A stretch of 64,000 nucleotides of DNA from an uncultured Thermoplasmata archaeon (GCA_963715645.1 OY970259.1:71841-135840); one strand, 5' to 3'; counted from the first letter of the stretch, positions 8,099 to 46,699 are shown. Program-made: numbers and translations. Notes: generated by a model not told the origin, from the sequence alone.

Positions 8099-8500
8099 TT
8101 ACCGACCGGTGCTCCCGAAACCGCCCGACCTCGACGCCTGGGGAGCGACCGTTCCTTCTTCGAACCGGAGCGGCAGGTCCTCGACCAGGCGGAGCTGGGC
8201 GATCCGGTCCCCGGCCTCGATCCGGTAGCTTCCCGGGAAGAGGTACGTGAGCGGTACCTTGACCTCTCCCGAATAGTCGTGGTCGATTGTACCGGGAGCG
8301 TTGACCATCAGGACGCCCTTCGTGCTGAGACCGCTCCGGGGCCGTACCTCGAGAAACGTGCCCGCCGGGCATCGGACCTTCAGCCCGGTCCGGACGAGGC
8401 TGACCTGGCCGGCGACGAGCACCACCTCCTCGGCGGCGCAGAGGTCGAGGCACGCCGAACCGTGGGTCGCTCGGTACGGGAATCCGGGCGCTCGGGGCAT
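8099..8500 (-). CDS. dut: dUTP diphosphatase (dUTPase)
   Basis: 133-aa ORF with SACLDL, RPRSGL, GTIDHDYSGEV and C-terminal SRSGGFGSTG motifs of trimeric dUTPases. Confidence 0.85.
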   Translation of the reverse strand: MPRAPGFPYRATHGSACLDLCAAEEVVLVAGQVSLVRTGLKVRCPAGTFLEVRPRSGLSTKGVLMVNAPGTIDHDYSGEVKVPLTYLFPGSYRIEAGDRIAQLRLVEDLPLRFEEGTVAPQASRSGGFGSTGR

Positions 8501-10866: not shown

Positions 10867-11898
10867 CGGAGGCGACTCCCTCGCCGGGAGGGGTCCGGGA
10901 GCTCGGCCGGTTCCTCGAGATCCAGAACCTCGGACTGAACCTCGCCTTCGCGGTCGCGTTCCTGCTGCTGGCCGCCAATGGGTGGCCGTCCCTGTGGACC
11001 GCCTTCCTGGTCGTCGTCGCCTTTGTGGGGGCCCGCAATGCCGGGCACAGCTTCAACCGCTGGGCCGACCGCGAGTTCGACGCGAAGAACCCCCGCACCC
11101 AACGACGAGCGATCCCCTCCGGACAGCGGTCGCCGGGCTCGGCGCTCGCGCTGGCGGCGGGGAATGGCGCCCTCCTGGTCGTCGCTGCCTATCTCCTGAA
11201 TCCGCTCGCCTTCGTGCTCGCTCCGGTAGCCCTCGTGTTGATCTTCGGCTACAGTTACACGAAGCGGGTCACCTCGCTCACCACGCCCTTTCTCGGCCTC
11301 GTCCAGGCGATCACCCCGGCCGCTGCGTTCATCGCCGTTCGGGGGACCCTCCCGCTTCCCTGTACTCGCCGCCGTCGGAGGGCTGCTCGCTTGGGGGACC
11401 GCCTTCGAAACGATCCACAGCCTCGGGGATGTCGAGAGCGACCGGGCGCTCGGCCTCCGGTCGTTGCCGGTCCGCATCGGGGTGCCCGCCTCGGTCCGAG
11501 CGGTCCCGCTCCTTCATGCGGCGGCCCTGGCCATGCTCGCGCTGTTCGGCCTCTTCCTCCACCTGCGGGTCGCGTACTTCATCGCGCTCGTTCTGATGGG
11601 GGGACTGGTCGCGGTAACGGACCGAACGGTGGCCCGCGAACCGACGGCGCCCCGCTCCCCCTTCCGGTGGCACTTCGCGATGGCCGCACTCTTCCTGGTC
11701 GGAGTGGGTCTAGCGCCGTTCGGTACCGATAGGCCCGGCGCTCGGCCTCCCCTAGTCGGCGCGCGCCGAGAGAGGCGGCCTCGCCTCGGTGAGCTAAAGT
11801 GTCCGGCCCCCTCCGGCAGGCGGACCCATGCCGCAGGTGATGATCGGCCTCTCGGCCCGCGACTACCGGACGACGAACGAGGTCTGGCGGCTGGCTAA
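10863..11898 (+). CDS. ubiA: UbiA-family aromatic prenyltransferase, one frame break, 3' end uncertain
   Basis: GTG overlaps the ubiD stop (GTGA). NAGHSFNRWADREFDAKNPRTQRRAIPSG is the UbiA Asp-rich motif region, with multiple TM helices. The frame switches near 11350-11360 to ..LAWGTAFETIHSLGDVESDRALGLRSLPV.. (second motif). The tail after about 11760 may not be translated. Confidence 0.75.
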
Positions 11899-12184
11899 GC
11901 GCCATCTGAACCCGGCCGTGCGGCGACGGATCGGCTGGCGTGGCCGCTCTAGCTTCCTCCGCCAGCTGATCCTGTACGGGTTCGAGAAGGCGAGCGAGAA
12001 CCCGGGCGGATTCCTCCGGGCGGTCCGGGATCTGCACGACCCCTTGTTCGGGAAGCGCGGGAGGTCCGAAGCGGGGGCGGACCGCCGGGAGTCCCTGGTT
12101 CCCACCTGGGAGGCGTTCTTCTCCGTGGCCACCGAGCCGACCCGACCCCGCGGCCGGCCCGCGAAGCCCCGGTCGTCCGAGTGA
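11828..12184 (+). CDS. Hypothetical small protein, possible ribbon-helix-helix DNA binder
   Basis: 118-aa ORF. The N-terminal beta-strand-like QVMIGLS followed by helical segments is RHH-like. Its stop overlaps the next gene (GTGA). No family recognised. Confidence 0.4.
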   Translation: MPQVMIGLSARDYRTTNEVWRLAKRHLNPAVRRRIGWRGRSSFLRQLILYGFEKASENPGGFLRAVRDLHDPLFGKRGRSEAGADRRESLVPTWEAFFSVATEPTRPRGRPAKPRSSE

Positions 12185-12216
12185 GCACGCTGGGTCACCC
12201 GGGAGAGGAACGAGAC

Positions 12217-14077
12217 ATGCGCTCGGTCGAGCGGTTGGAAGGTCTGGCTCTCGTCGGCCGGGCGACCCTCGGTGGGCTTTCGCTCCCCCTACCGGGCCTC
12301 TTGGAGAGCCGGACCGAGGCAGCGGAGCCCCCGGGCCTCTCGCTCCGTTCGGTCGAGGCGCCGCTCGCCCAGCGTCACCTTCGCATCTCCGACGGCACCT
12401 CGACGCTCGACATCGAATTCCCGGTCCCGTCTCCCGAGGTGGTGGGGCCCCCGGGGGGAGTGGTCCTCGCCGGTCCGGGGACGCTCCTCGTCCGCCCTCC
12501 CTTTCCCCCCACCTCCCCGGCCCCGGGCCGGTTCGCGCGCCCGAGCTCCTGGTCTGGGGCAATGCCCGCGCCCTCTGGGCGGAGGGACTTCCGTTCATCC
12601 AGGCCCTCCGGGAACTGCGCACGACGTTCGGGGCCGGCCCGGTGCTGTGGGCCCCGCGGGTCGCCCTGCCCCACCGCATCCCGCTGCTCTGCTATCTCGG
12701 AGTGGAGCTGACCGACTCCACCGAGGGACAGATCGCCGCCGCCCGGGGCGAGGACCCTCGACCCCACCCTCGGCGTGACCGACCGCACCGTCGCGCGAGC
12801 GGAGGGACGCTGCCGTTGTGCGGCGTGCACCGCCGAGCCGCCGGGTTCGCTCGAGGCCCATACCGCCGAGGCCTACCGGGAGGCGCTCGCCGAGACCCGG
12901 ACGGCCGCCCGGACCGCCGCTCCGGGAGCTTGTCGAGTCGCGGCTCGCGGCCGAGCCGGCGTTGGCCGAGCTGCTCCGGTACGCGGACCGGGAGCTAGCC
13001 GGGCTCCTCGAAGAGCGGACGCCGGTCACCGGGAGTGGGTCCCATACCTACGTCCTCCTCGAGTCCCACCGTCGGCCGGAGATGGTCCGGTTCCGCCGAC
13101 GCCTAAGGGAACGTTACGCTCCCCCACCGTCCAAGTCGGTCCTCCTCCTGGTCCCGTGCTCTCGAACGAAGCCGTACCGCTTCTCCCGGAGCCATCGCCG
13201 CTTCGCGAGCGCTCTCGAAGGGCTCTCTCCCCTCGAGCGCGTCCACCTCGTCTCCGTGAGCTCGCCGATCGGGCTCGTTCCGCGGGAGCTCGAGGACGTG
13301 CCTCCCGCCCGCCACTACGACATCCCGGTCACCGGCGACTGGGAAGAGCGGGAACGGACGGTGGTGATCGAGGGCCTCCGTCACTTCGCGGTCTCGGGTC
13401 ACTACCGGTCGGCCGTCGTCCATCTCGACCCCGAAGAGTACCGGTTCCTGCGAGACGCCTGGCCCGTCGGGCTGCCGGCGCGGTGGACCCTCTCCGGCGA
13501 CCGCACGACCTCCCGGGAGGCCCTTGATGCCCTGCGGAGCGCGATAGGTGAGGCCCTCGCTGCGGAGCGGCCGGTTGCGGGAGGCCCGCTCGCGGTGGTC
13601 CGGGAGGAGCTGCACGAGGTCGCCGCGGTCCAGTTCGGCCGGAGCGCCGCGGACCGCCTCTTCACCGGACCCATCCGTCTCGCCGGACGCCCGTGGTTCC
13701 AGCGGCTGACCGACGGCCGCACGGACCTCGCGACCCTGCGGGAGGAGCGAGGGCTCTTCCACCTGACGGTCGCGGGCGCTCGTCGACTTTTCCCCGACCC
13801 CCCCCTATGGGTCGCCGTGGACCCGGCGCTGCCTCTGACCGGGGACCTGTTCGTGCCGGGCGTGCGCGCAGCGGATCCGGGAATCCGCGCCGGGGACTCG
13901 GTCCTCCTCCTCCGGGAAGGGGCCCTCGCGGGCGTGGGGGAGGCCGCGCTGCCCGGCCGCTTGATGGTCGAGCTGCGGCGCGGGGTTGCGGTCCGGGTGC
14001 GTCACCGGGAGCATGCGGCGACCGACACGCCCATCACCGAGCAAGGTCCTCCGTCGACACCAGGGCCGGTCGTCTAG
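12217..14077 (+). CDS. arcS: Archaeosine synthase ArcS-like protein (TGT-like N-domain, DUF5591-type core, C-terminal PUA), at least three frame breaks
   Basis: Pieces lie in four frames: ..VLWAPRVALPHRIPLLCYLGVELTDS (TGT-like), RCRCAAC zinc motif, LRELVESRL, LLLVPCSRTKPY (DUF5591 hallmark), and a PUA-like end GDSVLLL..GVGEAALPG. Breaks near 12505-12540, 12745-12755 and 12905-12920. GGGAGAGG lies 8 nt before ATG 12217. Confidence 0.6.
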
Positions 14078-14135
14078 GGGTGAGGACGCCGCGCTTACAA
14101 CGCGGAGATTGGCGGTTCGAATCCGCCCCGGCCCA
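14063..14135 (+). tRNA. tRNA-Val (anticodon TAC)
   Basis: Hand-folded cloverleaf: acceptor GGGCCGG/CCGGCCC, D arm GTCT-AGGGGTGA-GGAC, anticodon arm CCGCG-CTTACAA-CGCGG, T arm GGCGG-TTCGAAT-CCGCC, discriminator A. No encoded CCA. Confidence 0.9.
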
Positions 14136-14146
14136 CTCGACCGACG
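14132..14146 (+). repeat. Direct repeat copy 1 (CCCACTCGACCGACG) overlapping the last 4 nt of tRNA-Val
   Basis: Exact 15-mer repeated at 14959-14973. Read directly from the sequence. Confidence 0.85.
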
Positions 14147-14244
14147 GAGGGCATCCCCCCCACTCCGCTACGGGGGATGCTCACCATCGCGGGACCATGG
14201 CGTCGCCTACGCGCAGTACTTTCAACAGGAATCGCTCCGGACGA

Positions 14245-14835
14245 CTATGGGCCTTCTAGGACCACGGGTGATGTAACCGTAACAGTCTCGTTCGTGGCTT
14301 GCTCATCAACGACAACTAAGGCCCAGGTTGCGACGGGCAGGACCCCCAAATCGCTGGTGACGTTGATCGGTAGTGAGGATAGGTTGATTGTCACGGCCGA
14401 GGAGAACGTAGTGTTCCAAGTCCCCCAGGGCGGAGGGTTGAATGGTGCCGGGCACGGGTGGACGAATCCGGTCAATTGTATCTCCAATTCACACGCCCAA
14501 ACGGATGGCAGCACCCAGACCGAAGAAGGACCTTTGACCTCTAGGCTCCCTGAGATTCTTGAGCGCCCGGTCACATTCAGAGGAATCCAAGCAGCACCTG
14601 CCATCGAACATGAGTACTCGGTGCCCCCCGCGACCTGAGTAATGTTACACCACGTGGAGGGCGGGGTAAGCAGCCAGCTCCTCCCCTGAGGCTCGACGAC
14701 GAATGCAGAATGGCTCTGACGCGGTTGAGACTCCAGGGAAAATCCAGCCAGCAACAGGCCAGTTGAGAGGCCAAGGATTAGCACGACAACCCTCCATCTA
14801 GCGGGAGTCTTCAGAACCGGGAAGCGTCCCGTCAT
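14245..14835 (-). CDS. Hypothetical secreted/membrane-anchored glycoprotein-like protein in a low-GC insert
   Basis: 196-aa ORF. N-terminal hydrophobic anchor RWRVVVLILGLSTGLLLAGF and six N-x-S/T sequons (NIT, NVT, NTT, NLS, NVT, NET). Preferred over overlapping + strand ORF 14177..14638, which lacks such features. Confidence 0.5.
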   Translation of the reverse strand: MTGRFPVLKTPARWRVVVLILGLSTGLLLAGFSLESQPRQSHSAFVVEPQGRSWLLTPPSTWCNITQVAGGTEYSCSMAGAAWIPLNVTGRSRISGSLEVKGPSSVWVLPSVWACELEIQLTGFVHPCPAPFNPPPWGTWNTTFSSAVTINLSSLPINVTSDLGVLPVATWALVVVDEQATNETVTVTSPVVLEGP

Positions 14836-14958
14836 GGAACCCCTGCGGGCAATCCCTCAGCGCTCCACTCGCGATGAACGTAACTGACAAGGTGAGCGGA
14901 CCTCGAAGCGGCCCAACAACGGACGGGAAATGCGCCGTTCGGGTGACCGGAGATGCCC

Positions 14959-14973
14959 CCCACTCGACCGACG
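14959..14973 (+). repeat. Direct repeat copy 2 (CCCACTCGACCGACG)
   Basis: Exact copy of 14132-14146, located 124 nt upstream of the insert ORF start. Confidence 0.85.
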
Positions 14974-15160
14974 CCCGACCCCGGGGCCTCGTGGGCCAGG
15001 GGTGGCGGCGCTCGAGGCGCCCGGTCACGATGAGCCAGCACCGACCCGAACGGGCGCCGAGCCCGGGCCTCCCGACGGCCGCTCCCAGTCGGTCGGAGAG
15101 GATGCGTCTCCCCGGGGGGCCGGTGGGGCCGCCCCGAACTCCGAGACCTCGGGGCGCGCG

Positions 15161-16456
15161 TCAGGCTCGCCCCGACCCAGCGGGGGGGAGTGGAGCCACG
15201 ACCTCACCGCCAATCTCCTCGGGCGGCCGAAGGCGGCGGAAACGGGAGTAGACCGCGACATCGTAGCCGATCTTGACGCACCCCGCGAGCGCGAAGGGGG
15301 CGGCGACCCACGGCCCACCCGCCGCGAGGAACGACCCGGTGACCGGCGCACCGAACGCCTGGCAGCTCCGGGCCGCGGTGGTGTAACCGGCCGCGGCGGC
15401 GCGGTCCCCGGGCGGAACGACCGCCTGGGTGTACGACTGGCGCGTGGGGACATCCATCTGAGAGAGCGTGGCCCGTGCGACCCAGAGGACGGACGCGATC
15501 ACGAAGGACGGGGCGAACACGACGAGGATGAGGAAGACGTTCGACGGAATGTGGCTGAAGACCATGGTGTTGACGAGACCGAACCGCCGGGCCAGCGGCG
15601 CGGCCAGAACGAGAGAGGCCCCGGCGGCCAGATTGCTGAGAAAGAAGACGAGCCCGAGCTGGTCGACCCCGGGGTGGAACTGGGTCGAGAAGTAGTAGAC
15701 GACGAGGCTGTTCACGATGAGTCCGCCGGCGAAAGCGTCGACGGAGAACAGCGCCGAGAGAGCGTAGACGACCGGCCGGCTCGGCGGCGAGAGCGGAGAG
15801 GGCCGCTCCCGCGCCGCGAGGCGGTCCACGTCGCTCGAAAGACCCCGATACAGGGGGACGAGAGCGAGACCGAGGAGAGCGTAGAAGAGGAGCGCGGCGT
15901 CGTGCGGGCCCGGAGGAAGCCCCACGACCGTCGGTCCGCGGAGCGAGGTGAGCGGACCGGCCGCGAGGGCGCCCACGGCGACCCCCACGTACCCCAGCAG
16001 GTTGTAGAGGGCGTAGGTGTGTGTTCTCCCCTGGTCCGCCGTCGTTCCCGCGAGAGCGGCCTGCTCAAGGGCGCCCAGGGGGCTCACGTCAGCCCCCCCG
16101 GCCACGATCCCGCCCAACAGGAGAGCCCCGATCAAGAGCGCGGGGTTCGCGATGTCGACCCAGAGGATCCCGCCCCCGAGGGCAAGCGCGGCGGCGGACA
16201 CCACCAAGGTCGATCGACGACGCCAATGCGCTTCGATCCGAGGCACCGCGATGGCCCAGGCCGCGGCTCCCCCCAGCGCGAGACCGAGAATGATGCCGAT
16301 GGCGAAGGACGAGTAACCCACCCCGGTGAGGTCGAGGGCGATCACGATTGAGAGGGCGCCGGCGCCGAAGCCCCGGGCCATCCGGGTCCCCATCAGCAGA
16401 AGGCGGTCCCGCCGCACCGACACCCCTGCCGAGCCGGGCGTGCCGTTCGCGGTCAT
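15161..16456 (-). CDS. Major facilitator superfamily transporter
   Basis: 431-aa ORF with about 12 hydrophobic segments and Gly/Ala-rich helices typical of MFS. No frame break. Confidence 0.75.
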   Translation of the reverse strand: MTANGTPGSAGVSVRRDRLLLMGTRMARGFGAGALSIVIALDLTGVGYSSFAIGIILGLALGGAAAWAIAVPRIEAHWRRRSTLVVSAAALALGGGILWVDIANPALLIGALLLGGIVAGGADVSPLGALEQAALAGTTADQGRTHTYALYNLLGYVGVAVGALAAGPLTSLRGPTVVGLPPGPHDAALLFYALLGLALVPLYRGLSSDVDRLAARERPSPLSPPSRPVVYALSALFSVDAFAGGLIVNSLVVYYFSTQFHPGVDQLGLVFFLSNLAAGASLVLAAPLARRFGLVNTMVFSHIPSNVFLILVVFAPSFVIASVLWVARATLSQMDVPTRQSYTQAVVPPGDRAAAAGYTTAARSCQAFGAPVTGSFLAAGGPWVAAPFALAGCVKIGYDVAVYSRFRRLRPPEEIGGEVVAPLPPAGSGRA

Positions 16457-16538
16457 CGTACCCTCGGTTCGGCCGGACGCGCCCCCGCCTCGACCAAGAG
16501 CGTCGGTGGGACGGTGGGTTCGATGCTGCCCCGTGCCA

Positions 16539-17012
16539 CTATCTGGACCCGCCTCCCGTATGCTCGAGCTTCCCTCCTCGTTCGACCTTCCACCGGCAGT
16601 AGGCGTAGAGCGCGTCGTAAAGCGGGAACTGGAGGCGTTGGTTCTCTAGGTCGTCGCGGGCCAGCATTCGGAAGCCGGTTGCGGCCGCCTCAAGTCCCCC
16701 CGCTTCGAGCTCCCGGCCGGAGCCGCCGTCGGCCACTCGCACGATCTTCGCGAGGGCGAGCAGGGCCGGGTCCGTGAGCTTGTACTTCCGTATGATCGCG
16801 TCAAAGCTCACGTACTCCGTGCCTTGCTCTTCGTAATGGTGGAGCTCCGCCCCGGGCGTGTCGAACGGGATGGCTCCCTCTCGCTCGGCCACCTCCATCA
16901 CGTTCTCCTTGGGTACGTAGAGAAATTCCGCGGAGGGGTCGACGAACTTCCGGATCAACCACGGGCACGCGATCCGGTCCACTCTCGCCTTCTCCCGGGT
17001 CACCCACTTCAT
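16539..17012 (-). CDS. ChrB C-terminal (chromate-resistance) domain protein
   Basis: MKWVTREKARVDRIACPWLIRKFVDPSAEFLYVP..AIPFDTPGAEL..SFDAIIRKYKLTDPALLALAKIVRVAD matches the Chrome_Resist/ChrB domain pattern as I remember it. Confidence 0.7.
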   Translation of the reverse strand: MKWVTREKARVDRIACPWLIRKFVDPSAEFLYVPKENVMEVAEREGAIPFDTPGAELHHYEEQGTEYVSFDAIIRKYKLTDPALLALAKIVRVADGGSGRELEAGGLEAAATGFRMLARDDLENQRLQFPLYDALYAYCRWKVERGGKLEHTGGGSR

Positions 17013-17068
17013 GACGGGACCTCGGCGGAGCGCACTGCGGGCCGGCTCATGAGGATACCATCGGGGGA

Positions 17069-17833
17069 CTAGGCACGAAGAGGACCCCGCGAGGCGGTGG
17101 CGGGGCTCGCCGAAATGATGCTGAGCGCGCTTCGGCGGGAGGCGGGGTGCGATCCGACCCCCCGAGTACGGTCAGGTCCGAGCTCGCGGCGGCCGCTGGG
17201 TCTCGCCCGCCCCACGGGGACCCGTCGGAGCACGACGTACGTGAACGGTTGACGGACCCCCCACGGGGTTCGATGACTCTCCCGGAGCTCCCGGACGAGA
17301 GCGAATCCCGGCGCGAACTCCGCCTCGAGCTTCCTACCGTCGTATCGGACCACGTCGAGGCCGCTACACTTTTCCGGCCCATCCAACGCAAAGGTGGCGA
17401 GCACGAGATGGCCTCCGAGGGGGACGGTCCGTTGAGCCAGATCCACGTACGCTCGTCGGTCCTGGGGGTCGGTGAGGAAGTGAAAGACCGCCCGGTCGTG
17501 CCACACGTCGAATCGGCCCAGGCGATCGATGGTGGTGACGTCCGCGTCGATCCGACGGACGCCCGGAACACCGGCGTTCGACCGATGCTGCCTTGAACGG
17601 AGTGCCGCGTCCGCGATGTCGACAACGGTAACGCCCCTGAACCCCCTCTGGCTCAGTCTCGCGGCGAGAGAGGAGGTGCCTCCGCCGATGTCGATGATGC
17701 GATCCTTCAAGGTCGCAAGGTCTCGAATCAGACGCAACGACAGAACCGGTTCGCCCTGATACCAGCTCAATTCGTCCTCGGCCTTGGTCCGATAGATGGA
17801 CTCCCAGTGCTGCCGGCGAGGTACCGCTGTCAA
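17069..17833 (-). CDS. Class I SAM-dependent methyltransferase
   Basis: WESIY..SWYQ.. N-terminus and motif I IIDIGGGTSSLAARL, then VTVVDIADAAL. The Arg-rich tail after about residue 205 may be non-native. Confidence 0.75.
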   Translation of the reverse strand: MTAVPRRQHWESIYRTKAEDELSWYQGEPVLSLRLIRDLATLKDRIIDIGGGTSSLAARLSQRGFRGVTVVDIADAALRSRQHRSNAGVPGVRRIDADVTTIDRLGRFDVWHDRAVFHFLTDPQDRRAYVDLAQRTVPLGGHLVLATFALDGPEKCSGLDVVRYDGRKLEAEFAPGFALVRELRESHRTPWGVRQPFTYVVLRRVPVGRARPSGRRELGPDRTRGVGSHPASRRSALSIISASPATASRGPLRA

Positions 17834-18025
17834 GGATTGGGCCAGGGACCTTCCCCGCTACAGCAGGGAGCAAAGCTACCCCTCCGTTCTCGATAACTGC
17901 GTCGATTGGCCATGAGTTCGGCCGGGGGCTTGCCCGTCGTCCGGCCAGACGCGAGAACCTGCCTATCGGCCTCGCGGCGGGGGGGCGTTCACGGGACCGC
18001 AGGTTCGACCGTCGGCATCCTGCGT

Positions 18026-18199
18026 CTAACCCGCCGGCCTCCGCTTGATCGCAATCCGCGGTCGGGTTGCCGGGACCCCGGGCTCAGATCGAGTCCGCCG
18101 GGGGCAGGCCGGGCAGCAGGCGCGTTGGACCGAGCAGCAGGCACAGCACTTGCAGCAGCTGGAGCAGGCGCAGCACGCACACGCGAGTTCGGGCGGCAT
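18026..18199 (-). CDS. Putative 57-aa cysteine-rich (metallothionein-like) small protein, not in the supplied ORF track
   Basis: My translation: MPPELACACCACSSCCKCCACCSVQRACCPACPRRTRSEPGVPATRPRIAIKRRPAG*. 13 Cys in residues 7-32 as CxC/CC/CxxC motifs, no aromatics or His, ATG start preceded by GAGGGGGTG. 47 of 57 codons end in G/C. Caveat: the antisense + frame shares the same wobble positions and also stays open (Gln-rich). Confidence 0.35.
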   Translation of the reverse strand: MPPELACACCACSSCCKCCACCSVQRACCPACPRRTRSEPGVPATRPRIAIKRRPAG

Positions 18200-18548
18200 C
18201 ACCCCCTCATGAACCCTACGAGTTCATCTCACCTTCGAGGGATGTCCTTGGGGCCGTTCCCCGGGCGTAGCACGCGGGGCGGCCGACCGGGGGCACGCAA
18301 AGACCTGATGGAAGCTCCCCGTTGTCGAGCAACGGCCCTGGGGCGGCGGGAACCGATTCGAAGCCGGTCTCGCTGTCGTTGCGCGATGCGAAGCCGTTTC
18401 CGTCTACCTCGGGGGGGCGGTGTTGCGATCGGTCCTTGGCCGACTTACTCGGGCCCGGCACCCGCGAGCTCGGGGCTCGAGCCTCCTTCGGCACCCTCGC
18501 CGTGTTCCCCCGGCCCCGCGGACCCCCCCTCCTCCGCTCGACACGGAT

Positions 18549-20588
18549 ATGAGGGGGTCCGCCTCCCTCTCGCGAGACGTTCCGACTTCGATGATCGACC
18601 GAACCGTATCCTCGGAGGAGGGGGGCTTTCCCTGGACGCTCTCCGCGGAGGACCTTCGCCGGACGGCGGGGGACGTGGTCCGCGAGGCGACGGAACGGCT
18701 CGATGCCCTCGTCCTCTCCCCGGACCCCCCCACGCCCGAGAACTTTCTCAAGCCCCTCGACCGGATCCTCCTGCGCGTACGGGACCTCGGCAATTACGGG
18801 AACTTTCTCTTCGCGGTCCACCCGGAGCTCGCCCTCCGGACCGCCGGCCGAGAAGCCTCCGAGGCGGCCGATCGGTTCTTCAACGCCTACCGCATCGACG
18901 ACCGCGTCTACCGAGCGCTCCAGGCGCTCGACCTCGCGGCGGGAGACTCGACGACCCGCTTTGCGGTCGAACGGATGCGACGGGAGATGCGCCGCTCCGG
19001 AGTCGAGAAGGACCCGGAGAGCCGCGCTCGGCTGGTGGCGCTCAATAACCTGATCGACCGGATCGCCAACCAGTACAACGAGAACATCGCCCGGCAGGAG
19101 CGCTCGGTCGAGGTCGACGGAGCGCAGGGCCTTCGGGGCCTTCCGCCGGACTACGTCGCGAGCCACCCCCCGGACCCAGGAGGGAAGGTCCGCATCACGA
19201 CCAAGTATCCGGACTACCACCCGATCATGGCCTACGCGGAGGACGGAGAGGTGCGTCGCCAGCTCCTCGCGGCATTCATGAACCGCGCCTACCCCGACAA
19301 CGTCGGAGTCCTCGACCAGCTCCTCCAGGAGCGCCACGAGCTGGCCAAGGCGCTCGGATACCCGACGTACGCGGCGTTCGCGCTCGAGGACAAGATGATC
19401 GAGCGGCCCGAGGTCGCCCGGACGTTCCTCGCCCGGGTGGCGGAGCGGGTCCGCGAGCCGGCGGCCCGTCACATGGTACGCCTGCTCGAGCGGAAGCGGG
19501 AGGACGAGCCGGCCGCCTCCCGGGTGGAGCTGTGGGATGCGAGCTTCTTCGGCCAGGGATACTACGACCACAAGATCCTCGTGGAGCAGTATGGGGTCGA
19601 CACCAAGCGGCTGCGCGATTACCTTCCGTACCAGCAGGTCCGGGACGGACTCTTCGCGCTCTGCGAGGAGCTCTTCGGCATCCGTTTCCAGCGGATCGAG
19701 ATCCCGAACCTCTGGCACCCGACCGTCGAGGTGTACGACGTGACGGAGGAGGGGCGTCCCCTCGGCCGCTGCTACCTCGACCTCGTCCCCCGGGACGGGA
19801 AGTACAATCACGCGGCCTGCTTCAGCGTGCGCGAAGGGCTCGGGGAGGTTCAACTGCCCCAGGCGGCCCTCGTCTGCAACTTCCTCGACCCGGCCACCCC
19901 GATCGCCACGGCACGGATGCAGTACATGGACGTCGTCACGTTCTTCCACGAGTTCGGCCACCTCCTCCACTCCCTGTTCTCCGGCCACGGACCGTGGGTG
20001 TACACCTCGATGTCCTTCGTGGAGTGGGATTTCATCGAGGCCCCCTCTCAGCTCTTCGAGGAGTGGGCGAGGGACCCGGCCACGCTCGCGCGGTTCGCGC
20101 GCAACCCCGACACCGGAGAGACGGTCCCGGCGGACCTCCTCGCCCGGCTGAAATCCTCCCAGGCGTTCGGCCGGGCCCACGGCTGGCTCCGGCAGGTGGC
20201 GCTGGCGGCCATCTCGCTCGAGCTGTACGACCGCGACCCCGCAGGGCTCGAGACGACTGCCTTCTTCCGGGAAGTGTACCAGCGGTACGTCCCCATGCCC
20301 CTGGAGCCGGAGTATCATCCCCAGGCCTCGTGGGGGCACCTCACCGGGTATTCCGCCTTCTACTACACCTACGTCTGGTCGCTCGTCATCGCTCGGGACC
20401 TCCTGCGGCCGTTCCTGGAGAAAGGGAACCTCACCGACCCCGAGACCGCGGCCCGCTACGCCCGCGAGATCCTTCGGCCCGGCGGCCAGCGTCCGGCGGC
20501 AGACCTCGTCCGCGCCTACCTCGGTCGGGAGTTCAATTTCGAGGCGTTCGAAGCGTGGGTCCAGGCGGACACCCCCCCTCCGCCGTGA
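18549..20588 (+). CDS. M3-family zinc metallopeptidase (thimet oligopeptidase / oligopeptidase A-like)
   Basis: HEFGH zinc motif in FFHEFGHLLHSLF, downstream EAPSQLFE, length about 680 aa. Start taken at ATG 18549 inside ORF 18420..20588. Confidence 0.85.
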   Translation: MRGSASLSRDVPTSMIDRTVSSEEGGFPWTLSAEDLRRTAGDVVREATERLDALVLSPDPPTPENFLKPLDRILLRVRDLGNYGNFLFAVHPELALRTAGREASEAADRFFNAYRIDDRVYRALQALDLAAGDSTTRFAVERMRREMRRSGVEKDPESRARLVALNNLIDRIANQYNENIARQERSVEVDGAQGLRGLPPDYVASHPPDPGGKVRITTKYPDYHPIMAYAEDGEVRRQLLAAFMNRAYPDNVGVLDQLLQERHELAKALGYPTYAAFALEDKMIERPEVARTFLARVAERVREPAARHMVRLLERKREDEPAASRVELWDASFFGQGYYDHKILVEQYGVDTKRLRDYLPYQQVRDGLFALCEELFGIRFQRIEIPNLWHPTVEVYDVTEEGRPLGRCYLDLVPRDGKYNHAACFSVREGLGEVQLPQAALVCNFLDPATPIATARMQYMDVVTFFHEFGHLLHSLFSGHGPWVYTSMSFVEWDFIEAPSQLFEEWARDPATLARFARNPDTGETVPADLLARLKSSQAFGRAHGWLRQVALAAISLELYDRDPAGLETTAFFREVYQRYVPMPLEPEYHPQASWGHLTGYSAFYYTYVWSLVIARDLLRPFLEKGNLTDPETAARYAREILRPGGQRPAADLVRAYLGREFNFEAFEAWVQADTPPPP

Positions 20589-31503: not shown

Positions 31504-32880
31504 TCAGGGCGGGGTTCCGCCGCGGACCTCGGCGTCGGCCACGGCGAGCGCCCGGTCGAGGACGTCCAGTCCATGGTCGAGCTCCTCCCGCGTCACGATC
31601 AGGGGCGGGGCGATCACGAGGTGCGAGACCCACGCGACGCAGAACACTCCCTCCTTCATCATCGCCGCGGCCACCTGTTCGGCGACCAGGGGGCGCCCGG
31701 CGAGCTTGTCCTCCTCGGTGTTGAAGGGGAGACGGGTCGCACGGTCCCGGACGAGCTCGACGGCCGCGAAGAGGCCGAGCCCGCGGACCTCGCCGACCGA
31801 CGGATGTCGCGCTTCGATCTCCCGAAGGCGGCGGAGCAGGTACTCGCCGTCCCGGCGGGACTTCGCGAGGAGGTCGAGGCGACGGTACTCTCCGATCGCC
31901 GCCACGGCGGGGGCGAGCGTGAGCGGGTGGGCCTCGTAGGTGTGCCCGTGGGGGAAGTAGCGGTCCCGGAAGACGTCGTGGAGGGAGGAGGTCGTGGCGG
32001 TCAGCCCGAGAGGGATGTGCGCGCCCGTGATCCCCTTCGCGGTCGTGAGGAGGTCCGGCTCGACCTTCCAGTGGTCGACCGCGAACCACTCGCCGACCCG
32101 GCCCCAGCCGGTCATCACCTCGTCGGCGATGAGGAGGACGCTGTGCCGGCGGGTGATCTCGCGGATCCGCGGGAGATACTCCGGCACCGGTACGATCACT
32201 CCGTTCGTGCCGACCACCGGCTCGAGGATCATCGCCGCGACGTTGCCCTCCCGTTCGAGTTGCCGGTCGACGTAGTCGGCGCAGGCGACCCCGCAGGAGG
32301 GGTACGTGAGCCCGAACGGACAGCGGTAGCAGTAACAGTCGGGCGCAAAGACGGTCCCAGGAACCGTCTGGAGGCCTTCGACCGGACGTCGTCGAGGGTC
32401 GCCGGTCACGGAGATCGACGCGGCGGTGGCACCGTGGTAGGATCGGTAGCGGGAAAGGACCTTGGTCCGTCCCGTCGCGACGCGGGCGATCTTGAGCGCG
32501 GCCTCGTTGGCTTCGGTCCCCGAGGTGCTGAAGAAGAACCGGTTCAGGCCGTGCGGTAGGACCTGGAGAAGGGCCGAGCTCAGGTGGGCGCGGGCCTCGG
32601 TGGCGAATCCTGGCGCCGCGTAGGAGAGCACGCGCGCCTGGGCTGCGATCGCTTCGACGACCGCCGCGTTCGCATGGCCGAGGTTGGTGGCCATCAGCTG
32701 GGAGGAGAAGTCGAGGTAGGCGCGGCCCTTGTCGTCCCAGAACGTTGAGTCTTTGGCCCGGGTCACCACCAGCGGGTTCCATCCGCCTTGGCGCCGCCAG
32801 GTAACGTAGTTCGTTTCCCGCACGACCTGGCGAATGGCATCCCCGTCCACCGAGGGGGCCTTGGGGTCAGGGTCGGTCAT
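31504..32880 (-). CDS. Class-III omega-aminotransferase (beta-alanine/taurine:pyruvate type)
   Basis: FSTSGTEANEAALK, LIADEVMTGWGRVG, LLTTAKGITG (PLP Lys), HGHTYEAHP. Start at MTDPDPK (32880). Confidence 0.8.
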   Translation of the reverse strand: MTDPDPKAPSVDGDAIRQVVRETNYVTWRRQGGWNPLVVTRAKDSTFWDDKGRAYLDFSSQLMATNLGHANAAVVEAIAAQARVLSYAAPGFATEARAHLSSALLQVLPHGLNRFFFSTSGTEANEAALKIARVATGRTKVLSRYRSYHGATAASISVTGDPRRRPVEGLQTVPGTVFAPDCYCYRCPFGLTYPSCGVACADYVDRQLEREGNVAAMILEPVVGTNGVIVPVPEYLPRIREITRRHSVLLIADEVMTGWGRVGEWFAVDHWKVEPDLLTTAKGITGAHIPLGLTATTSSLHDVFRDRYFPHGHTYEAHPLTLAPAVAAIGEYRRLDLLAKSRRDGEYLLRRLREIEARHPSVGEVRGLGLFAAVELVRDRATRLPFNTEEDKLAGRPLVAEQVAAAMMKEGVFCVAWVSHLVIAPPLIVTREELDHGLDVLDRALAVADAEVRGGTPP

Positions 32881-33763
32881 GTCCGGTCCGAGAGCGTCGC
32901 CCTTTAAGACGGTCGTCCGCCGGCCTCGTCGATGCGAACAGGCGGCCGGCGTTGCCGCCGAGGATGGCCGCTCGGTCCTCCTCGGAGATCTCGAGGCCTT
33001 GGACGAGCGCGACGGACGTGGCCAGGGACTCGAGGGGCCAGTCCGACCCGTACAGGATGCGGGCCGCGGAACCGATGGTGTCGACGGCGGCCTGCAGTAC
33101 CGCCCGGGCGCGGGCGACCCCCCGCTCGAAGTAAGGGGTCGTGGGATGGGCCAGGAGGCCGGAGGTGTCCGCGTAGACGTTCTCGTTCTTGTAGACCAGC
33201 TCCGCGGCTTCCTCCACCCAGGGGTTCCCAAAGTGGCAGAGGACGAATCGGACGTCACGGTGACGCACCGCGACCTCGTCGACCTCAATCGGTCGCGCGA
33301 ACTTGAGGAGGCCGTTCGGCGCGAGGGTGTCGCCCTGGTGGATCATCACCGGGAGGCGATGCCGTGCGGCGTACTGGTACACGGGTTCGAGGGCGGGGTC
33401 GTGCGGGTAGAAGGGATGGTACCCCGGGAAGAGCTTGATCGCGGCGAGGTCCGGAACTGCCTCCCAACCCGCCACCACGGCCTCCACGGACTCGCGCCCG
33501 GGATTGGGAAAAGCGGTGGCGACCGGCCGCAGACGACCTCCACTGGCGTGCGCGTGCTCCACCGATTCCCGGAGCGACTCGGCGGGGGTGGGGCCCTCGT
33601 AGACGGGGAGGAGGAGGCCGGAGGTGATGCCCGCCGCATCCATCTCCGCCAGGAGCCCGCGGACGGTGTAGTCGAGGTCCGCACGGTAGCCGGTCCGGGG
33701 CAGGTCCGGCCACCAGCGCGAGAGGTGCAGGTGGACGTCGACGGTCGGGGGGGCCTCGGGCAT
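32867..33763 (-). CDS. Amidohydrolase-2 family metal-dependent hydrolase (TIM barrel)
   Basis: VDVHLHLS (HxH), MIHQGD, VLCHFGNPW, YGSDWP motifs. Its 3' end overlaps the downstream aminotransferase start by 14 nt. Confidence 0.7.
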   Translation of the reverse strand: MPEAPPTVDVHLHLSRWWPDLPRTGYRADLDYTVRGLLAEMDAAGITSGLLLPVYEGPTPAESLRESVEHAHASGGRLRPVATAFPNPGRESVEAVVAGWEAVPDLAAIKLFPGYHPFYPHDPALEPVYQYAARHRLPVMIHQGDTLAPNGLLKFARPIEVDEVAVRHRDVRFVLCHFGNPWVEEAAELVYKNENVYADTSGLLAHPTTPYFERGVARARAVLQAAVDTIGSAARILYGSDWPLESLATSVALVQGLEISEEDRAAILGGNAGRLFASTRPADDRLKGRRSRTGHDRP

Positions 33764-33860
33764 CTCCTCTACGCGGGAGAGAGCCGAGGGGGGTCCATAA
33801 CCCGTCCGGTGGTCGTCCTAGCTCTGATATGGGCCTGTTCCCGTAACCCGGGGGGGTTGG

Positions 33861-35372
33861 ATGAGCGACACTTCGGAGTCCGGCAGCTACCTCGACGCGC
33901 CCAAAATTGTCCACCCGCCGCCCGGCCCGCGTTCCCGGGAGCTGCTGGCCGAGCAGGCAAAATGGGAGACCGACGCGGTCTCCTACTCGCACTACTTCCC
34001 CATGGCGATCCGGTCAGCGCGCGGCGCGACGGTCGAGGACGTCGACGGCAATCGGTACATCGACTGGGTGGCGGGCATCTCGGTGCTCAACCTGGGCCAT
34101 CAGCACCCGAGGCTCGTGGCCGCGCTCGCGGGGCAGAGCCGGGAGCTCTGGCACTCCCTGGAACTCCCCACGGAGGCCCGGATTCGATTCCTCAAGGAAC
34201 TGGAGGACGCGCTCCCCGGTAGCCTCCGGAACCACGCGAGGATCTTCTTCACCGTGACCGGCGGGGATGCGGTCGAGACCGCCGTCCAGCTCGCGGACTT
34301 TGCCAAGGGCCGCCACGGCACGATCGCGTTCTCCGGCGCCTACCACGGCGTCCACGGGGGGGCCGTCCACCTGACCAGCGGGAGCCGCTACCACACGACG
34401 ACGCCCTTCGCCGGGAGCCACGTCGTTCGGGTGCCCTACCCGGACCCGTACCGCCCGGTCCTGGGGGCGGACGCCGGAGCGGCGGGAACGATCGCCTATC
34501 TCGAGCACCTCGTGAACGACCCGGCCTCGGGCGCGGACAAGGTCTCGGCGGTCCTGGTCGAGCCAATCCTTGGCGAGGGCGGCTACGTCGTGCCGCCGGA
34601 CGATTTCCTGCCCTCGTTGCGCGAGTTCTGCAACCGCCACGACCTTCTCCTGATCGCCGACGAGATCCAGACCGGGCTCGGACGGACCGGCCGGATGTGG
34701 GCCGTCGAGCATGCCGGGGTCACGCCGGACATCCTGTGCATCGCGAAAACGATCGGGGGCGGCATCCCCCTCTCGGTCGTGGCGTACCGCAAGGACCTGG
34801 TCCCCGAGCTCCCGCGCGGGTTCCACATCGGGACCTACCGGGGGAATCCGCTCGCGCTCGCGGTCGGGACCGAAGTGCTCCGGGTCCTTCGAGAGGGCGA
34901 CCTCCTCCACCACACTGCCCATCGAGGCGCCGCGCTGGTGGAGCGGTTCCGGGCCATGGGAGAGCGCCATCCTTCGATCGGGAACGTTCGTGGCAAGGGG
35001 TTCATGATCGGGGTGGAGTTCGTCCAGAACCGGGCGACCCGCCTCCCGTGGGGGGACCGGGCGAAGGCGATGCGCTCGGCCCTGTTCGCGCGCGGGGTGC
35101 TCATGCACACCGCCGGCGCGTGGGACCAGGTGCTCCGGTTCATGGCCCCGCTGGTTATCGAGAACGAGCTCCTGGAGCGGGGCCTCGCCGCCTTCGAGGA
35201 TTCGCTCGACTCCCTGGACGGTACGGGGGAGAATCCCCCCATCCGCTCCGTCCCCCACGCGCCAACCGCCACGGGGTGGCGGCCCATCGGGGACCCCGGA
35301 CTCGGTCATCCCGGCCCGCCCGCAACGCCGGGCCCCTACCCGATCACGGGAACCGACGAAGAGACGCGGTAA
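33861..35372 (+). CDS. Class-III aminotransferase, 4-aminobutyrate (GabT)-like
   Basis: DVDGNRYIDWVAGISVLNLGHQHP, FTVTGGDAVETA, EPILGEGG, LIADEIQTGLGRTG, ILCIAKTIGGG (PLP Lys). Intact, with a Pro-rich tail. Confidence 0.8.
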   Translation: MSDTSESGSYLDAPKIVHPPPGPRSRELLAEQAKWETDAVSYSHYFPMAIRSARGATVEDVDGNRYIDWVAGISVLNLGHQHPRLVAALAGQSRELWHSLELPTEARIRFLKELEDALPGSLRNHARIFFTVTGGDAVETAVQLADFAKGRHGTIAFSGAYHGVHGGAVHLTSGSRYHTTTPFAGSHVVRVPYPDPYRPVLGADAGAAGTIAYLEHLVNDPASGADKVSAVLVEPILGEGGYVVPPDDFLPSLREFCNRHDLLLIADEIQTGLGRTGRMWAVEHAGVTPDILCIAKTIGGGIPLSVVAYRKDLVPELPRGFHIGTYRGNPLALAVGTEVLRVLREGDLLHHTAHRGAALVERFRAMGERHPSIGNVRGKGFMIGVEFVQNRATRLPWGDRAKAMRSALFARGVLMHTAGAWDQVLRFMAPLVIENELLERGLAAFEDSLDSLDGTGENPPIRSVPHAPTATGWRPIGDPGLGHPGPPATPGPYPITGTDEETR

Positions 35373-35379
35373 CCGGCCC

Positions 35380-36871: not shown

Positions 36872-36878
36872 GTGGCGA

Positions 36879-38370: not shown

Positions 38371-38512
38371 GGACGCCCCCCGTAGGGGCAAAACCCGGAC
38401 CGGCTCAATAGCGTGCCGCAGGGGACCCGCCGCGTCCCGCGACGTTGTATCATGGTATACCTTATCAGGGAGGAGTCGGTCCTACGCCTCGCCCTTTCGG
38501 GGGGGCGGTTCG

Positions 38513-40440: not shown

Positions 40441-40467
40441 CGGCCCGCCGAGGGCAGGGACCCTAGG

Positions 40468-43725: not shown

Positions 43726-43731
43726 GCGCCG

Positions 43732-44777: not shown

Positions 44778-44849
44778 GCGCCGGAGCGGCCGCCATCCCT
44801 CCCGCGAGCCTGTCCGGGGTATTAACCCAGCGACTGAGCCCGGTCCTGC

Positions 44850-46506: not shown

Positions 46507-46537
46507 ATCGAGGTGCGAACTTGCGACCCGGTGGTGG

Positions 46538-46547
46538 CTATATATAG
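46538..46547 (-). promoter_or_regulatory. Palindromic TATA box CTATATATAG 32-41 nt upstream of ATG 46506
   Basis: Sole AT-rich decamer immediately upstream of the extended aminotransferase ORF. It supports use of the long N-terminal form. Confidence 0.45.
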
Positions 46548-46675
46548 ATGGCTGGGGAGCTGAACAGGATTTAGGTTTCTCAATCCGAAGCGAACGGTGC
46601 TACAGAGCGAGCATTAGGTGGTCGAAATACTGCAATTATGTGGTGGTGTTCTGCTCCAAACGACCGAAAGCGCTC

Positions 46676-46682
46676 AAAAAAA
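46676..46682 (-). terminator. Oligo-T (T7 on the minus strand) archaeal-type terminator after the saccharopine-dehydrogenase-like gene
   Basis: A7 on the plus strand, 18 nt downstream of the stop at 46700-46702. Oligo-T tracts are the known archaeal termination signal. Confidence 0.45.
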
Positions 46683-46699
46683 CCTATCCAAGCCTCCTG

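What the first reader, a model, noticed from the sequence alone, without database searches (positions are those of the whole stretch)
14132..14973. tRNA-Val 3' end duplicated as a 15-bp direct repeat flanking a low-GC single-gene insert
CCCACTCGACCGACG occurs at 14132-14146, where its first 4 nt are the last 4 nt of tRNA-Val. It occurs again at 14959-14973.

The ~810 bp between the copies is visibly less GC-rich than the surroundings (31/60 G+C at 14267-14326). It encodes only a 196-aa anchored, sequon-rich protein on the opposite strand. An imperfect hairpin (GGGCATCCCCC..GGGGGATGCTC, 14149-14181) sits next to the tRNA.

This is the att-site geometry left by tRNA-targeting integrative elements, but no integrase is present. 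It is therefore either a decayed remnant or a minimal cargo cassette.
Basis: seen in the sequence. Interest (0 to 1): 0.6.

Follow-up and report, generated by a model that had tools for sequence, protein, structure and literature searches.

The report
Casposon-style single-gene insert beside tRNA-Val
An 812-base piece of foreign DNA carrying one surface-protein gene sits just after a tRNA-Val gene of a soil archaeon, and its 15-base flanking duplication matches the footprint of Cas1-driven transposons (casposons) rather than ordinary integrases, although the insert encodes no enzyme of its own.

Summary
CCCACTCGACCGACG occurs only twice in the 2.18-Mb genome (14132-14146 and 14959-14973). The two copies bracket an 812-bp segment with 59.6% GC and GC3 of 0.64, against GC3 of 0.84-0.87 in the neighbouring genes. 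The segment carries one intact 196-aa gene that is absent from 36 congeneric species.

- Only 4-5 nt of the repeat lie in the tRNA. The other 10-11 nt are a trailer that differs in every congener I read, so the repeat reads as a target-site duplication.
- The insert ends carry a short inverted motif (GGGCATCCCC / GGAGATGCCC, empirical p about 0.001).
- Integrase-linked islands in the same genome have repeats lying 16-24 nt inside their tRNAs.
- A 15-bp duplication overlapping the tRNA end by 4-5 bp is the published footprint of family-2 casposons.
- A congener (G025) carries a 15.4-kb casposase element with a 15-bp duplication that also starts CCCAC, 9 nt after a T-loop-like motif.

G000 has no Cas1 or PolB. 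My best reading (about 50%) is a non-autonomous or deleted casposon-type cassette. The main rival (about 22%) is an integrase-element remnant. No empty site was found.

The parts
14063..14136 (+). tRNA-Val, anticodon TAC. This is the insertion target. Its T-arm and acceptor 3' strand (14111-14135) would act as the 'leader' next to the duplicated segment.
   Evidence: ARAGORN. Orthologous tRNA found in 49 of 61 related genomes. My cloverleaf count puts the discriminator A at 14135.
14132..14146 (+). Direct repeat copy 1 (tRNA-proximal), CCCACTCGACCGACG. Its first 4-5 nt are the end of tRNA-Val. The other 10-11 nt are a trailer that differs between congeners.
   Evidence: only two copies in the genome; the trailer differs in each of the seven congeners read.
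14147..14958 (.). The 812-bp inserted segment. GC is 59.6%; both ends are unique in the genome.
   Evidence: The same structure is present in three independent assemblies.
14149..14158 (+). Left terminal motif GGGCATCCCC, 2 nt from repeat copy 1. It is the inverted partner of the right terminal motif.
   Evidence: 9/10 complementary to 14949-14958.
14171..14181 (+). Internal third copy of the motif (GGGGGATGCTC).
   Evidence: I8. The 10-mer GGGGATGCCC with up to 1 mismatch occurs 3 times in 900 bp, against 0.247 per kb genome-wide.
14245..14835 (-). Cargo gene, 196 aa: N-terminal membrane anchor or signal, then a beta-sandwich ectodomain with 6 N-glycosylation sequons and 4 conserved cysteines. 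It belongs to a small uncharacterised family.
   Evidence: no Pfam or NCBIfam match. (6 close homologues; 48 clusters at E up to 1e-3). (AF2 model, pLDDT 77). (only weak jelly-roll, CBM and C1q-like fold matches). (GC3 0.635).
14949..14958 (+). Right terminal motif GGAGATGCCC, directly abutting repeat copy 2.
14959..14973 (+). Direct repeat copy 2 (distal). GC rises to 75-79% immediately after it.

Best explanation
The 812 bp at 14147-14958 are a horizontally acquired single-gene cassette. It entered the chromosome by a transposition-type reaction: staggered cuts 15 bp apart, followed by fill-in. The cuts were placed by the 3' end of tRNA-Val, so the first 4-5 nt of the duplicated segment are the last nt of the tRNA.

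This is the footprint of family-2 casposons, transposons integrated by a Cas1-type 'casposase'. I therefore read the insert as a non-autonomous casposon-type element. It could be a mini-element mobilised in trans, or a full element that lost its casposase and polymerase genes by internal deletion. It keeps short inverted ends (GGGCATCCCC / GGAGATGCCC) and carries one cargo gene.

The cargo encodes a membrane-anchored, probably N-glycosylated beta-sandwich surface protein. Its coding sequence resembles genes found in contigs of about 60% GC.

Shown:
- the insertion, its exact borders and its foreign composition;
- the duplication of trailer sequence that differs between congeners;
- the terminal inverted motif;
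- casposases in the genus, one with the same target geometry.

Inferred:
- that a casposase did the integration;
- that the enzyme came from a co-resident element that has since been lost, or acted in an ancestor;
- that the element is now immobile.
For: 1. The repeat is an exact 15-mer found only at these two places in the genome. It coincides with the GC step and with a GC3 of 0.635 against 0.84-0.87 in neighbours.
2. Ten to eleven of the 15 nt are trailer that differs in each of the seven congeners read. Matches in nearly all congeners end at or a few nt past the tRNA end. This points to a duplication made at insertion, not to pre-existing att homology.
3. The terminal inverted motif is 9/10, empirical P = 0.0014. 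The motif occurs three times in the insert against 0.22 expected.
4. Published casposon footprints match. In A. boonei the TSD is 15 bp and overlaps the tRNA-Pro 3' end by 5 bp; the target is the TSD plus the adjacent T-loop segment; only the 3'-terminal TCCCC of the TIR is needed; artificial mini-casposons integrate. In M. mazei the TSD is 14 bp and its first 4 bp are the last 4 bp of tRNA-Leu. Solo TIRs and remnants exist there.
5. Casposases exist in the genus. The Cas1-solo proteins of G032 and G025 match the M. mazei casposase structure 6OPM over their full length (E 3e-68 and 7e-68), against 1e-26 or weaker for CRISPR Cas1.
6. The G025 element has 40-nt TIRs at 90% and a weak PolB-like gene. 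Its 15-bp duplication CCCACCCACCTTGGG starts 9 nt after a TTCGAAT T-loop-like motif, at CCCAC. This is the same register and the same first 5 nt as here.
7. A second small insert sits at the same tRNA-Val position in G011: a 169-bp insert with a 16/18 repeat that starts at CCCAC. Its right end (CAACGGA...GGATGC) loosely resembles ours.
8. Integrase-type islands in G000 look different, with repeats 16-24 nt inside the tRNA.
Against: - G000 has no Cas1 and no PolB-like sequence. The Pfam Cas1 search and two protein searches with the G025 enzymes were empty.
- The inverted ends are only 10-12 nt. The motif is nearly palindromic, so the left end also resembles the right junction as a direct repeat, 14/17 (D7).
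- The ends do not resemble the G025 TIR.
- The left motif is offset 2 nt from the repeat.
- The ends are single-copy in the genome. No autonomous parent with GCATCC-type ends was found at tRNA-Val in the 29 congeneric loci fetched.
- The G011 repeat is 18 nt, not 15.
- No empty site or excised form was found.
- With a 2-nt gap, 9 of the 16 nt upstream of copy 2 match the tRNA T-arm. That would also fit a decayed longer att site.
Confidence: 0.5

Rival explanations
1. This is the remnant of a tRNA-targeting integrative element moved by a tyrosine (or serine) recombinase. On this reading the 15-mer is the att core shared by attP and attB. The inverted GGGGATGCCC-type motifs are recombinase-binding sites that flanked the core in attP. 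The integrase and most of the element were later deleted, leaving one cargo gene.
For: - tRNA 3' ends are the commonest integration sites, and this genome has at least seven tRNA-linked repeats and five tyrosine-recombinase genes.
- In the joined (attP-like) form, the motifs would lie as an inverted pair around the core plus a third copy, which is typical of recombinase sites.
- With a 2-nt gap, GCCCC and 9 of the 16 nt upstream of copy 2 match the tRNA (my reading).
- Small repeat-bounded segments also exist at tRNA-Leu, -Arg and -Cys.
Against: - Only 4-5 nt of the repeat are tRNA. The rest is non-conserved trailer, so attP would have had to match a sequence that differs in the congeners read.
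- The repeats at the same position in G011 and at the G025 casposon share only CCCAC. That is what a ruler-type duplication gives, not a conserved att core.
- The spacer between the inverted motifs would be 17 bp. By general knowledge, not tested here, tyrosine recombinases use 6-8 bp.
- The integrase-type repeats in this genome lie 16-24 nt inside tRNAs. Those at tRNA-Leu and tRNA-Arg continue as imperfect similarity beyond the exact core, which ours does not.
- No integrase fragment lies in or near the insert.
Confidence: 0.22
2. The cassette was inserted by some other transposition system that makes long target duplications. Candidates are an unidentified IS-family transposase acting in trans (a MITE-like element with cargo) or an as yet undescribed tRNA-end-targeting enzyme. 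No Cas1 would be involved.
For: - Terminal inverted motif plus a flanking duplication.
- No casposase in the genome.
- The ends are unlike the one casposon TIR known in the genus.
Against: - By general knowledge of IS families (not tested here), duplications of 15 bp are unusual, and none is known to be positioned 4-5 nt inside a tRNA 3' end.
- The only published systems with that exact footprint are casposons.
- The element is single-copy, unlike MITE families.
Confidence: 0.18
3. There was no insertion event. The 15-mer pair is a chance repeat in GC-rich DNA, and the 196-aa gene is an ordinary fast-evolving lineage-specific gene with atypical composition.
For: - About 4% of genomes like this would show an exact repeat of 15 nt or more within 1.5 kb of some tRNA end by chance.
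- About 5% of 800-bp windows in the genome are as GC-poor.
- The locus is identical in three assemblies and no empty site is known.
Against: - The repeat borders coincide with the GC step to within a few bases.
- The terminal inverted motif has P = 0.0014.
- The gene is absent from 36 congeners, while homologues of 49-66% identity sit in unrelated contexts, one of them a contig of about 60% GC.
- A second repeat starts at the same tRNA-Val nucleotide in G011.
- None of the 29 congeneric tRNA-Val loci gave an exact repeat of this kind at the tRNA end.
Confidence: 0.07

Closest known systems
AciBoo-C1, the family-2 casposon of Aciduliprofundum boonei (Beguin et al. 2016, PMC5137440; Beguin et al. 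2019, PMC6614799)
   Same: - 15-bp target duplication whose first 5 bp are the last 5 bp of a tRNA gene.
- The target is read from the adjacent T-loop segment.
- The element ends are C-rich at the 3' terminus (TCCCC there, GATGCCC here).
- Artificial 'mini-casposons' with only the ends and a marker gene integrate in vitro.
- From my own knowledge, not tested here: the host belongs to the same phylum-level group, Thermoplasmatota.
   Different: - AciBoo-C1 is an autonomous element encoding casposase, PolB, HNH and other genes, with a 37-bp TIR and tRNA-Pro as target.
- Our insert is 812 bp, has no casposase or polymerase, has 10-12-nt inverted ends, targets tRNA-Val, and carries a surface-protein gene.
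Methanosarcina mazei family-2 casposons (Krupovic et al. 2016, PMC4779613; Hickman et al. 2020, PMC6977970, structure 6OPM)
   Same: - 14-bp duplication whose first 4 bp are the last 4 bp of tRNA-Leu, while the rest of the duplicated segment is variable.
- Remnants and solo TIRs are left in genomes.
- The casposases of this genus (G025, G032) are full-length homologues of 6OPM.
   Different: - 14 bp rather than 15 bp; conserved CGCA start rather than CCCAC; 31-bp TIRs.
- The elements are autonomous. The described remnants are solo TIRs, not gene-carrying cassettes.
The 15.4-kb casposase element of congener G025
   Same: - Same genus.
- 15-bp flanking duplication starting CCCAC, exactly 9 nt after a TTCGAAT T-loop-like motif. 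This is the same register as our repeat relative to tRNA-Val.
   Different: - It encodes a casposase, a weak PolB-like protein, an RNase-H-like protein and a type I restriction-modification system, and has 40-nt TIRs (CGCTATAC...) unrelated to our GGGCATCC ends.
- It sits next to a tRNA-like 3' fragment that neither ARAGORN nor Rfam calls a tRNA.
tRNA-targeting tyrosine-recombinase integrative elements of archaea (for example the islands at tRNA-Thr and tRNA-Met of this same genome)
   Same: Foreign, GC-poor DNA next to a tRNA 3' end, bounded by a direct repeat.
   Different: - Those islands contain integrase genes, and their repeats lie 16-24 nt inside the tRNA.
- Ours has no integrase and a repeat that is mostly non-tRNA trailer.

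Membership tests
Casposon (Cas1-dependent self-synthesizing transposon), family 2 | Encodes a Cas1-type casposase | tested here: not met
   Nothing in the 812 bp. No Cas1 anywhere in G000 by Pfam PF01867 or by the G025 casposase as query.
Casposon (Cas1-dependent self-synthesizing transposon), family 2 | Encodes a family B DNA polymerase | tested here: not met
   No room in the insert. The G025 PolB-like protein finds nothing in G000.
Casposon (Cas1-dependent self-synthesizing transposon), family 2 | Terminal inverted repeats at the element ends | tested here: inconclusive
   9/10 inverted motif at the ends, P = 0.0014. But it is only 10-12 nt, nearly palindromic, and offset 2 nt on the left. 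Known TIRs are 31-40 nt or longer.
Casposon (Cas1-dependent self-synthesizing transposon), family 2 | Target-site duplication of 14-15 bp | tested here: met
   Exact 15-bp repeat, unique in the genome, made mostly of trailer that differs between congeners.
Casposon (Cas1-dependent self-synthesizing transposon), family 2 | Insertion at a tRNA 3' end, with the duplication overlapping the last 4-5 bp of the tRNA | tested here: met
   Overlap of 4 nt by cloverleaf count, or 5 nt by ARAGORN's end. The register is the same as in the G025 casposase element and as published.
Casposon (Cas1-dependent self-synthesizing transposon), family 2 | Integration actually catalysed by a casposase | not testable with these tools
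   Needs an in vitro or in vivo assay.
tRNA-targeting tyrosine-recombinase integrative element | Integrase gene at one end of the element | tested here: not met
   The five PF00589 hits in G000 are all more than 1 Mb away. None lies in 11000-19000.
tRNA-targeting tyrosine-recombinase integrative element | The att repeat is a copy of the tRNA 3' part carried by the element | tested here: not met
   Only 4-5 of 15 nt are tRNA. The integrase-type repeats in the same genome lie 16-24 nt inside tRNAs.
MITE (miniature inverted-repeat transposable element) | Short, non-coding and multi-copy, with TIRs and a TSD | tested here: not met
   It has TIR-like ends and a duplication. But it is single-copy and carries an intact, conserved gene.

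The most novel reading that the evidence does not exclude
The insert, together with the 169-bp insert at the same nucleotide of tRNA-Val in G011, belongs to a natural family of non-autonomous casposons. These would be enzyme-less cassettes with GCATCC-type ends that borrow a casposase in trans and ferry single genes (here a surface glycoprotein) between Thermoplasmata. The tRNA-Val 3' end would act like a CRISPR leader where such cassettes are deposited. On this reading, casposases capture and fix foreign genes in cells, a step between transposition and spacer acquisition.
Probability: 0.3. Interest if true: 0.7.

Novelty: new variant of a known kind. Interest (0 to 1): 0.5.

Why it matters
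Casposons are thought to be the ancestors of the CRISPR adaptation machinery, and so far they are described as large autonomous elements or dead remnants. In vitro, casposases integrate almost any DNA with the right few terminal bases, but the papers I could search do not describe natural enzyme-less cargo cassettes.

A single-gene cassette with a casposon footprint would show that these enzymes can fix foreign genes in a host chromosome. That bears on how archaea acquire surface proteins, and on how a transposase could turn into a 'DNA-capturing' immune integrase.

If the rival (integrase remnant) is right, the locus is an ordinary piece of genome decay.

Tried and rejected
- **Empty site in relatives.** The MFS gene to the right of the insert lies elsewhere in G007, G008 and G003. 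The tRNA-Val trailers and the MFS-distal flanks are not alignable between species. No comparison was possible.
- **Second repeat copies** within 10 kb of tRNA-Val in G007, G003 and G008: none.
- **JGI metagenome scan** with a degenerate pattern covering attL, attR, attB and attP: 8 hits, all unrelated chance matches and none near a tRNA.
- **Other assemblies of the same strain** (ERR11748454, SRR25213560): both occupied, 99.9% identical.
- **Cargo function.** No Pfam or NCBIfam hit. Fold search gave only weak matches, TM up to 0.39, to generic jelly-roll, CBM and C1q-like folds. The profile search found a small anonymous family; its hits in large proteins are short matches in Fn3-repeat proteins and probably spurious. 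No relative was found in GTDB representative genomes.
- **Homologue contexts** (L045, L046, L047): no tRNA, integrase or casposase nearby. By local BLAST, DNA similarity to the insert is confined to the coding sequence, window 14240-14805. This corrected my first impression from the global alignment.
- **TIRs of the casposase loci in G032 and G018:** not found within the fetched stretches.
- **Copies of the G025 TIR in G000:** only one doubtful relic.
- **Pattern search for the shared right-end motif in 61 genomes:** only G011 plus five hits that look random. My pattern also missed G000 itself, because I set the spacing one base too long.
- **Parent element with GCATCC ends at tRNA-Val in congeners:** none.

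Full report
**1. The observation**

The 15-mer CCCACTCGACCGACG is at 14132-14146 and 14959-14973. It occurs nowhere else in the 2,182,341-bp genome on either strand. ARAGORN places tRNA-Val(TAC) at 14063-14136. My cloverleaf count puts the discriminator at 14135, so the repeat overlaps the tRNA by 4-5 nt.

The 812 bp between the copies have 59.6% GC, against 67.6% for the genome and 72-79% in the flanks. The step falls at the repeat borders. GC3 of the single gene (14245-14835, minus strand, 196 aa) is 0.635, against 0.835-0.866 for its three neighbours.

Taken alone, an exact repeat of 15 nt or more within 1.5 kb of some tRNA end would arise by chance in roughly 4% of genomes like this one: 0.0013 per site over 33 tRNAs. 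The case rests on the coincidence of several features, not on the repeat alone.

**2. It is foreign and recent**

The protein has no paralogue in the genome and no homologue in 36 congeneric species.

In 5.8 billion proteins it has six relatives, at 49-99% identity. A profile search of 1.8 billion representatives finds 48 clusters, nearly all anonymous proteins of about 200 aa. The contig carrying the 66% homologue is about 60% GC throughout the 5 kb profiled, the same as the insert.

The homologues sit in unrelated, variable contexts with toxin-antitoxin genes, and without a tRNA, integrase or casposase. By local BLAST, DNA similarity to the insert is confined to the coding sequence, window 14240-14805. 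The roughly 100-150 bp at each end of the insert are therefore particular to this element.

Two other assemblies of the same strain (Logan ERR11748454 and SRR25213560) have the identical arrangement, with both repeat copies, at 99.9% identity. No empty site is known.

**3. Anatomy of the ends**

Directly inside the repeats lies an inverted motif. On the left it is GGGCATCCCC (14149-14158, 2 nt from copy 1). On the right it is GGAGATGCCC (14949-14958, abutting copy 2). The two are 9/10 complementary.

The 10-mer with up to 1 mismatch occurs three times in 900 bp, against 0.247 per kb in the genome.

One caution: the motif is nearly palindromic. As a result, the left end also resembles the right junction as a direct repeat, 14/17, including CCCACTC (D7). 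Both ends are single-copy in the genome.

**4. Why it is not an integrase att site**

G000 has many tRNA-linked repeats.
- The islands at tRNA-Gln (17.7 kb), tRNA-Thr (57.7 kb) and tRNA-Met (22.9 kb), and the small segment at tRNA-Cys (687 bp), have repeats lying 16-24 nt inside the tRNA.
- Tyrosine-recombinase genes lie beside tRNA-Thr and inside the tRNA-Met island.
- The small segments at tRNA-Leu and tRNA-Arg have repeats that continue as imperfect similarity well beyond the exact core. They have no inverted ends.

The tRNA-Val repeat differs in kind. It has sharp borders, only 4-5 nt of it are in the tRNA, and 10-11 nt are trailer.

That trailer is not conserved. In each of the seven congeners I read, the sequence after ...GGCCCA is different. 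In the genus-wide search, matches in nearly all congeners end at or a few nt past the tRNA end. An element-borne attP would have had to match a trailer not seen in any congener read. A duplication generated at insertion needs no such coincidence.

**5. The casposon footprint**

The published work gives a very specific geometry.
- The A. boonei casposon makes a 15-bp duplication that overlaps the tRNA-Pro 3' end by 5 bp. Its target is that 15 bp plus the adjacent 18 bp encoding the T-loop (PMC5137440).
- The M. mazei casposons make a 14-bp duplication whose first 4 bp are the last 4 bp of tRNA-Leu. Only those 4 bp are conserved (PMC4779613; PMC6977970).
- Only the five 3'-terminal bases (TCCCC) of the A. 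boonei TIR are needed for integration. One or two extra bases are tolerated, and artificial mini-casposons integrate (PMC6614799).

Our insert has a 15-bp duplication with a 4-5-bp overlap. Its right 3' end is ...GATGCCC. Its left (bottom-strand) 3' end is ...GATGCCCTC.

**6. Casposases in the genus**

G000 itself has no Cas1 or PolB-like sequence.

Three congeners (G032, G025, G018) have Cas1-solo genes of 396-399 aa. Those of G032 and G025 match the M. mazei casposase structure 6OPM over their full length, at E 3e-68 and 7e-68. CRISPR Cas1 proteins match at 1e-26 or weaker. These genes sit with an RNase-H-like gene, a large protein with a weak protein-primed PolB signal, and defence-type cargo.

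In G025 the element is delimited by 40-nt TIRs at 90% identity, 15.3 kb apart. It is flanked by the 15-bp repeat CCCACCCACCTTGGG. That repeat begins exactly 9 nt after a TTCGAAT T-loop-like motif, in a sequence 15/21 identical to the tRNA-Val T-arm and acceptor strand. This is the same register, and the same first five bases, as our repeat. That flank is not itself called a tRNA.

**7. A second small insert at the same nucleotide**

In G011 the tRNA-Val end is followed by CCCACCTATGCTCGCCTT. After 169 AT-richer non-coding bases comes CCCGCATATGCTCGCCTT, a 16/18 match.

The repeat again starts at CCCAC and again consists of that species' own trailer. The right end (CAACGGA...GGATGCAAG) loosely resembles ours (CAACGGA...AGATGCCC). 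This resemblance was noticed after the fact and is weak.

Three repeats share only the start at the tRNA end and have otherwise unrelated sequence. That is what a ruler-type target duplication produces.

**8. The cargo**

The AlphaFold model (pLDDT 77 overall, core 85-93) is a beta-sandwich behind a disordered N-terminal anchor. Fold searches give only weak jelly-roll, carbohydrate-binding-module and C1q-like matches, with TM up to 0.39.

Four cysteines and many Trp and Pro residues are invariant among the six homologues. I read it as a membrane-anchored, N-glycosylated surface protein of unknown ligand. This is inference only.

**9. Verdict**

That this is a genuine insertion with a target-type duplication I hold at about 85%. 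That a casposase made it I hold at about 50%.

The main weaknesses are these:
- there is no casposase in this genome;
- the ends are short and palindrome-like;
- no parent element has been found;
- no empty site has been found.

The integrase-remnant reading stays at about 22%. Another transposition system is at about 18%, and chance at about 7%; together with the 50% for a casposase these sum to 97%. The insert fails the membership test for 'casposon' (no Cas1, no PolB), but it works like one in every feature that sequence can show.

Noticed in passing
G000:C1 (whole genome; window = 71841-135840): 512605/513901, 1036126/1037038, 1599153/1599840, 883801/901501, 1832964/1890624, 2137016/2159901: Six further tRNA 3'-end direct repeats. 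Three are small segments: tRNA-Leu(CAA) 1.3 kb, tRNA-Arg(GCG) 0.9 kb, tRNA-Cys 0.7 kb. Three are large GC-poor islands: tRNA-Gln 17.7 kb, tRNA-Thr 57.7 kb with an adjacent tyrosine integrase, tRNA-Met 22.9 kb with an integrase inside. The repeats at Cys, Gln, Thr and Met lie 16-24 nt inside the tRNA; those at Leu and Arg overlap it by 13 and 15 nt.
   Followed up: partly
L068:2004-17429 (G025:C22, about 32003-47428): A 15.4-kb casposase-encoding element in a congener. It has 40-nt TIRs and a 15-bp duplication CCCACCCACCTTGGG next to a tRNA-like 3' fragment. Its genes include a casposase (6OPM-like), an RNase-H-like protein, a weak PolB-like 889-aa protein and a complete type I restriction-modification system as cargo.
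   Followed up: partly
L067 (G032:C3:17000-36999) and L069 (G018:C141:27000-43718): Two more 6OPM-like Cas1-solo loci in the genus, both with defence-type neighbours: AddAB-like helicase-nuclease in G032; SIR2-like, Cas4-like nuclease and HerA-like ATPase in G018. I could not find their TIRs or duplications within the fetched stretches.
   Followed up: partly
L036:1301-1506, minus strand (G011:C39): A 169-bp non-coding, AT-richer insert directly after tRNA-Val of G011. It is flanked by a 16/18 direct repeat that starts at the same CCCAC of the tRNA end. G011 has no Cas1 either.
   Followed up: partly
G000:C1:1215031-1215052, minus strand: A 22-mer matching the outer end of the G025 casposon TIR at 19/22. 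It is the only hit with up to 4 mismatches in the genome (a reversed-genome control gave none at up to 3). It lies inside a GC-poor island that also holds two integrase genes. It may be a solo casposon TIR relic.
   Followed up: partly
window 11361, 11723, 12525, 12757, 12917-12919, 18105: Single-base indels relative to the 99.86%-identical Logan contig L076. In L076 the DUF5591/PUA (ArcS-like) gene upstream of tRNA-Val is one 620-aa ORF, whereas the window gives 419 aa. The assembly therefore probably carries indel errors, which may explain its 54% completeness score despite being one 2.18-Mb contig.
   Followed up: partly
window 14110: T in the variable loop of tRNA-Val here, but C in both other assemblies of the strain and in most congeners. 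The ERR11748454 contig also has one G fewer in the D-loop G-run.
   Followed up: no
L039 about 8130-8160 (G007:C2, about 2146130): In G007 the orthologue of the MFS gene (window 15161-16456) ends next to a sequence that looks like another tRNA 3' end (GGGTTCAAATCCCGACCAGTCCATCA). This gene block may sit beside tRNA genes in more than one species.
   Followed up: no
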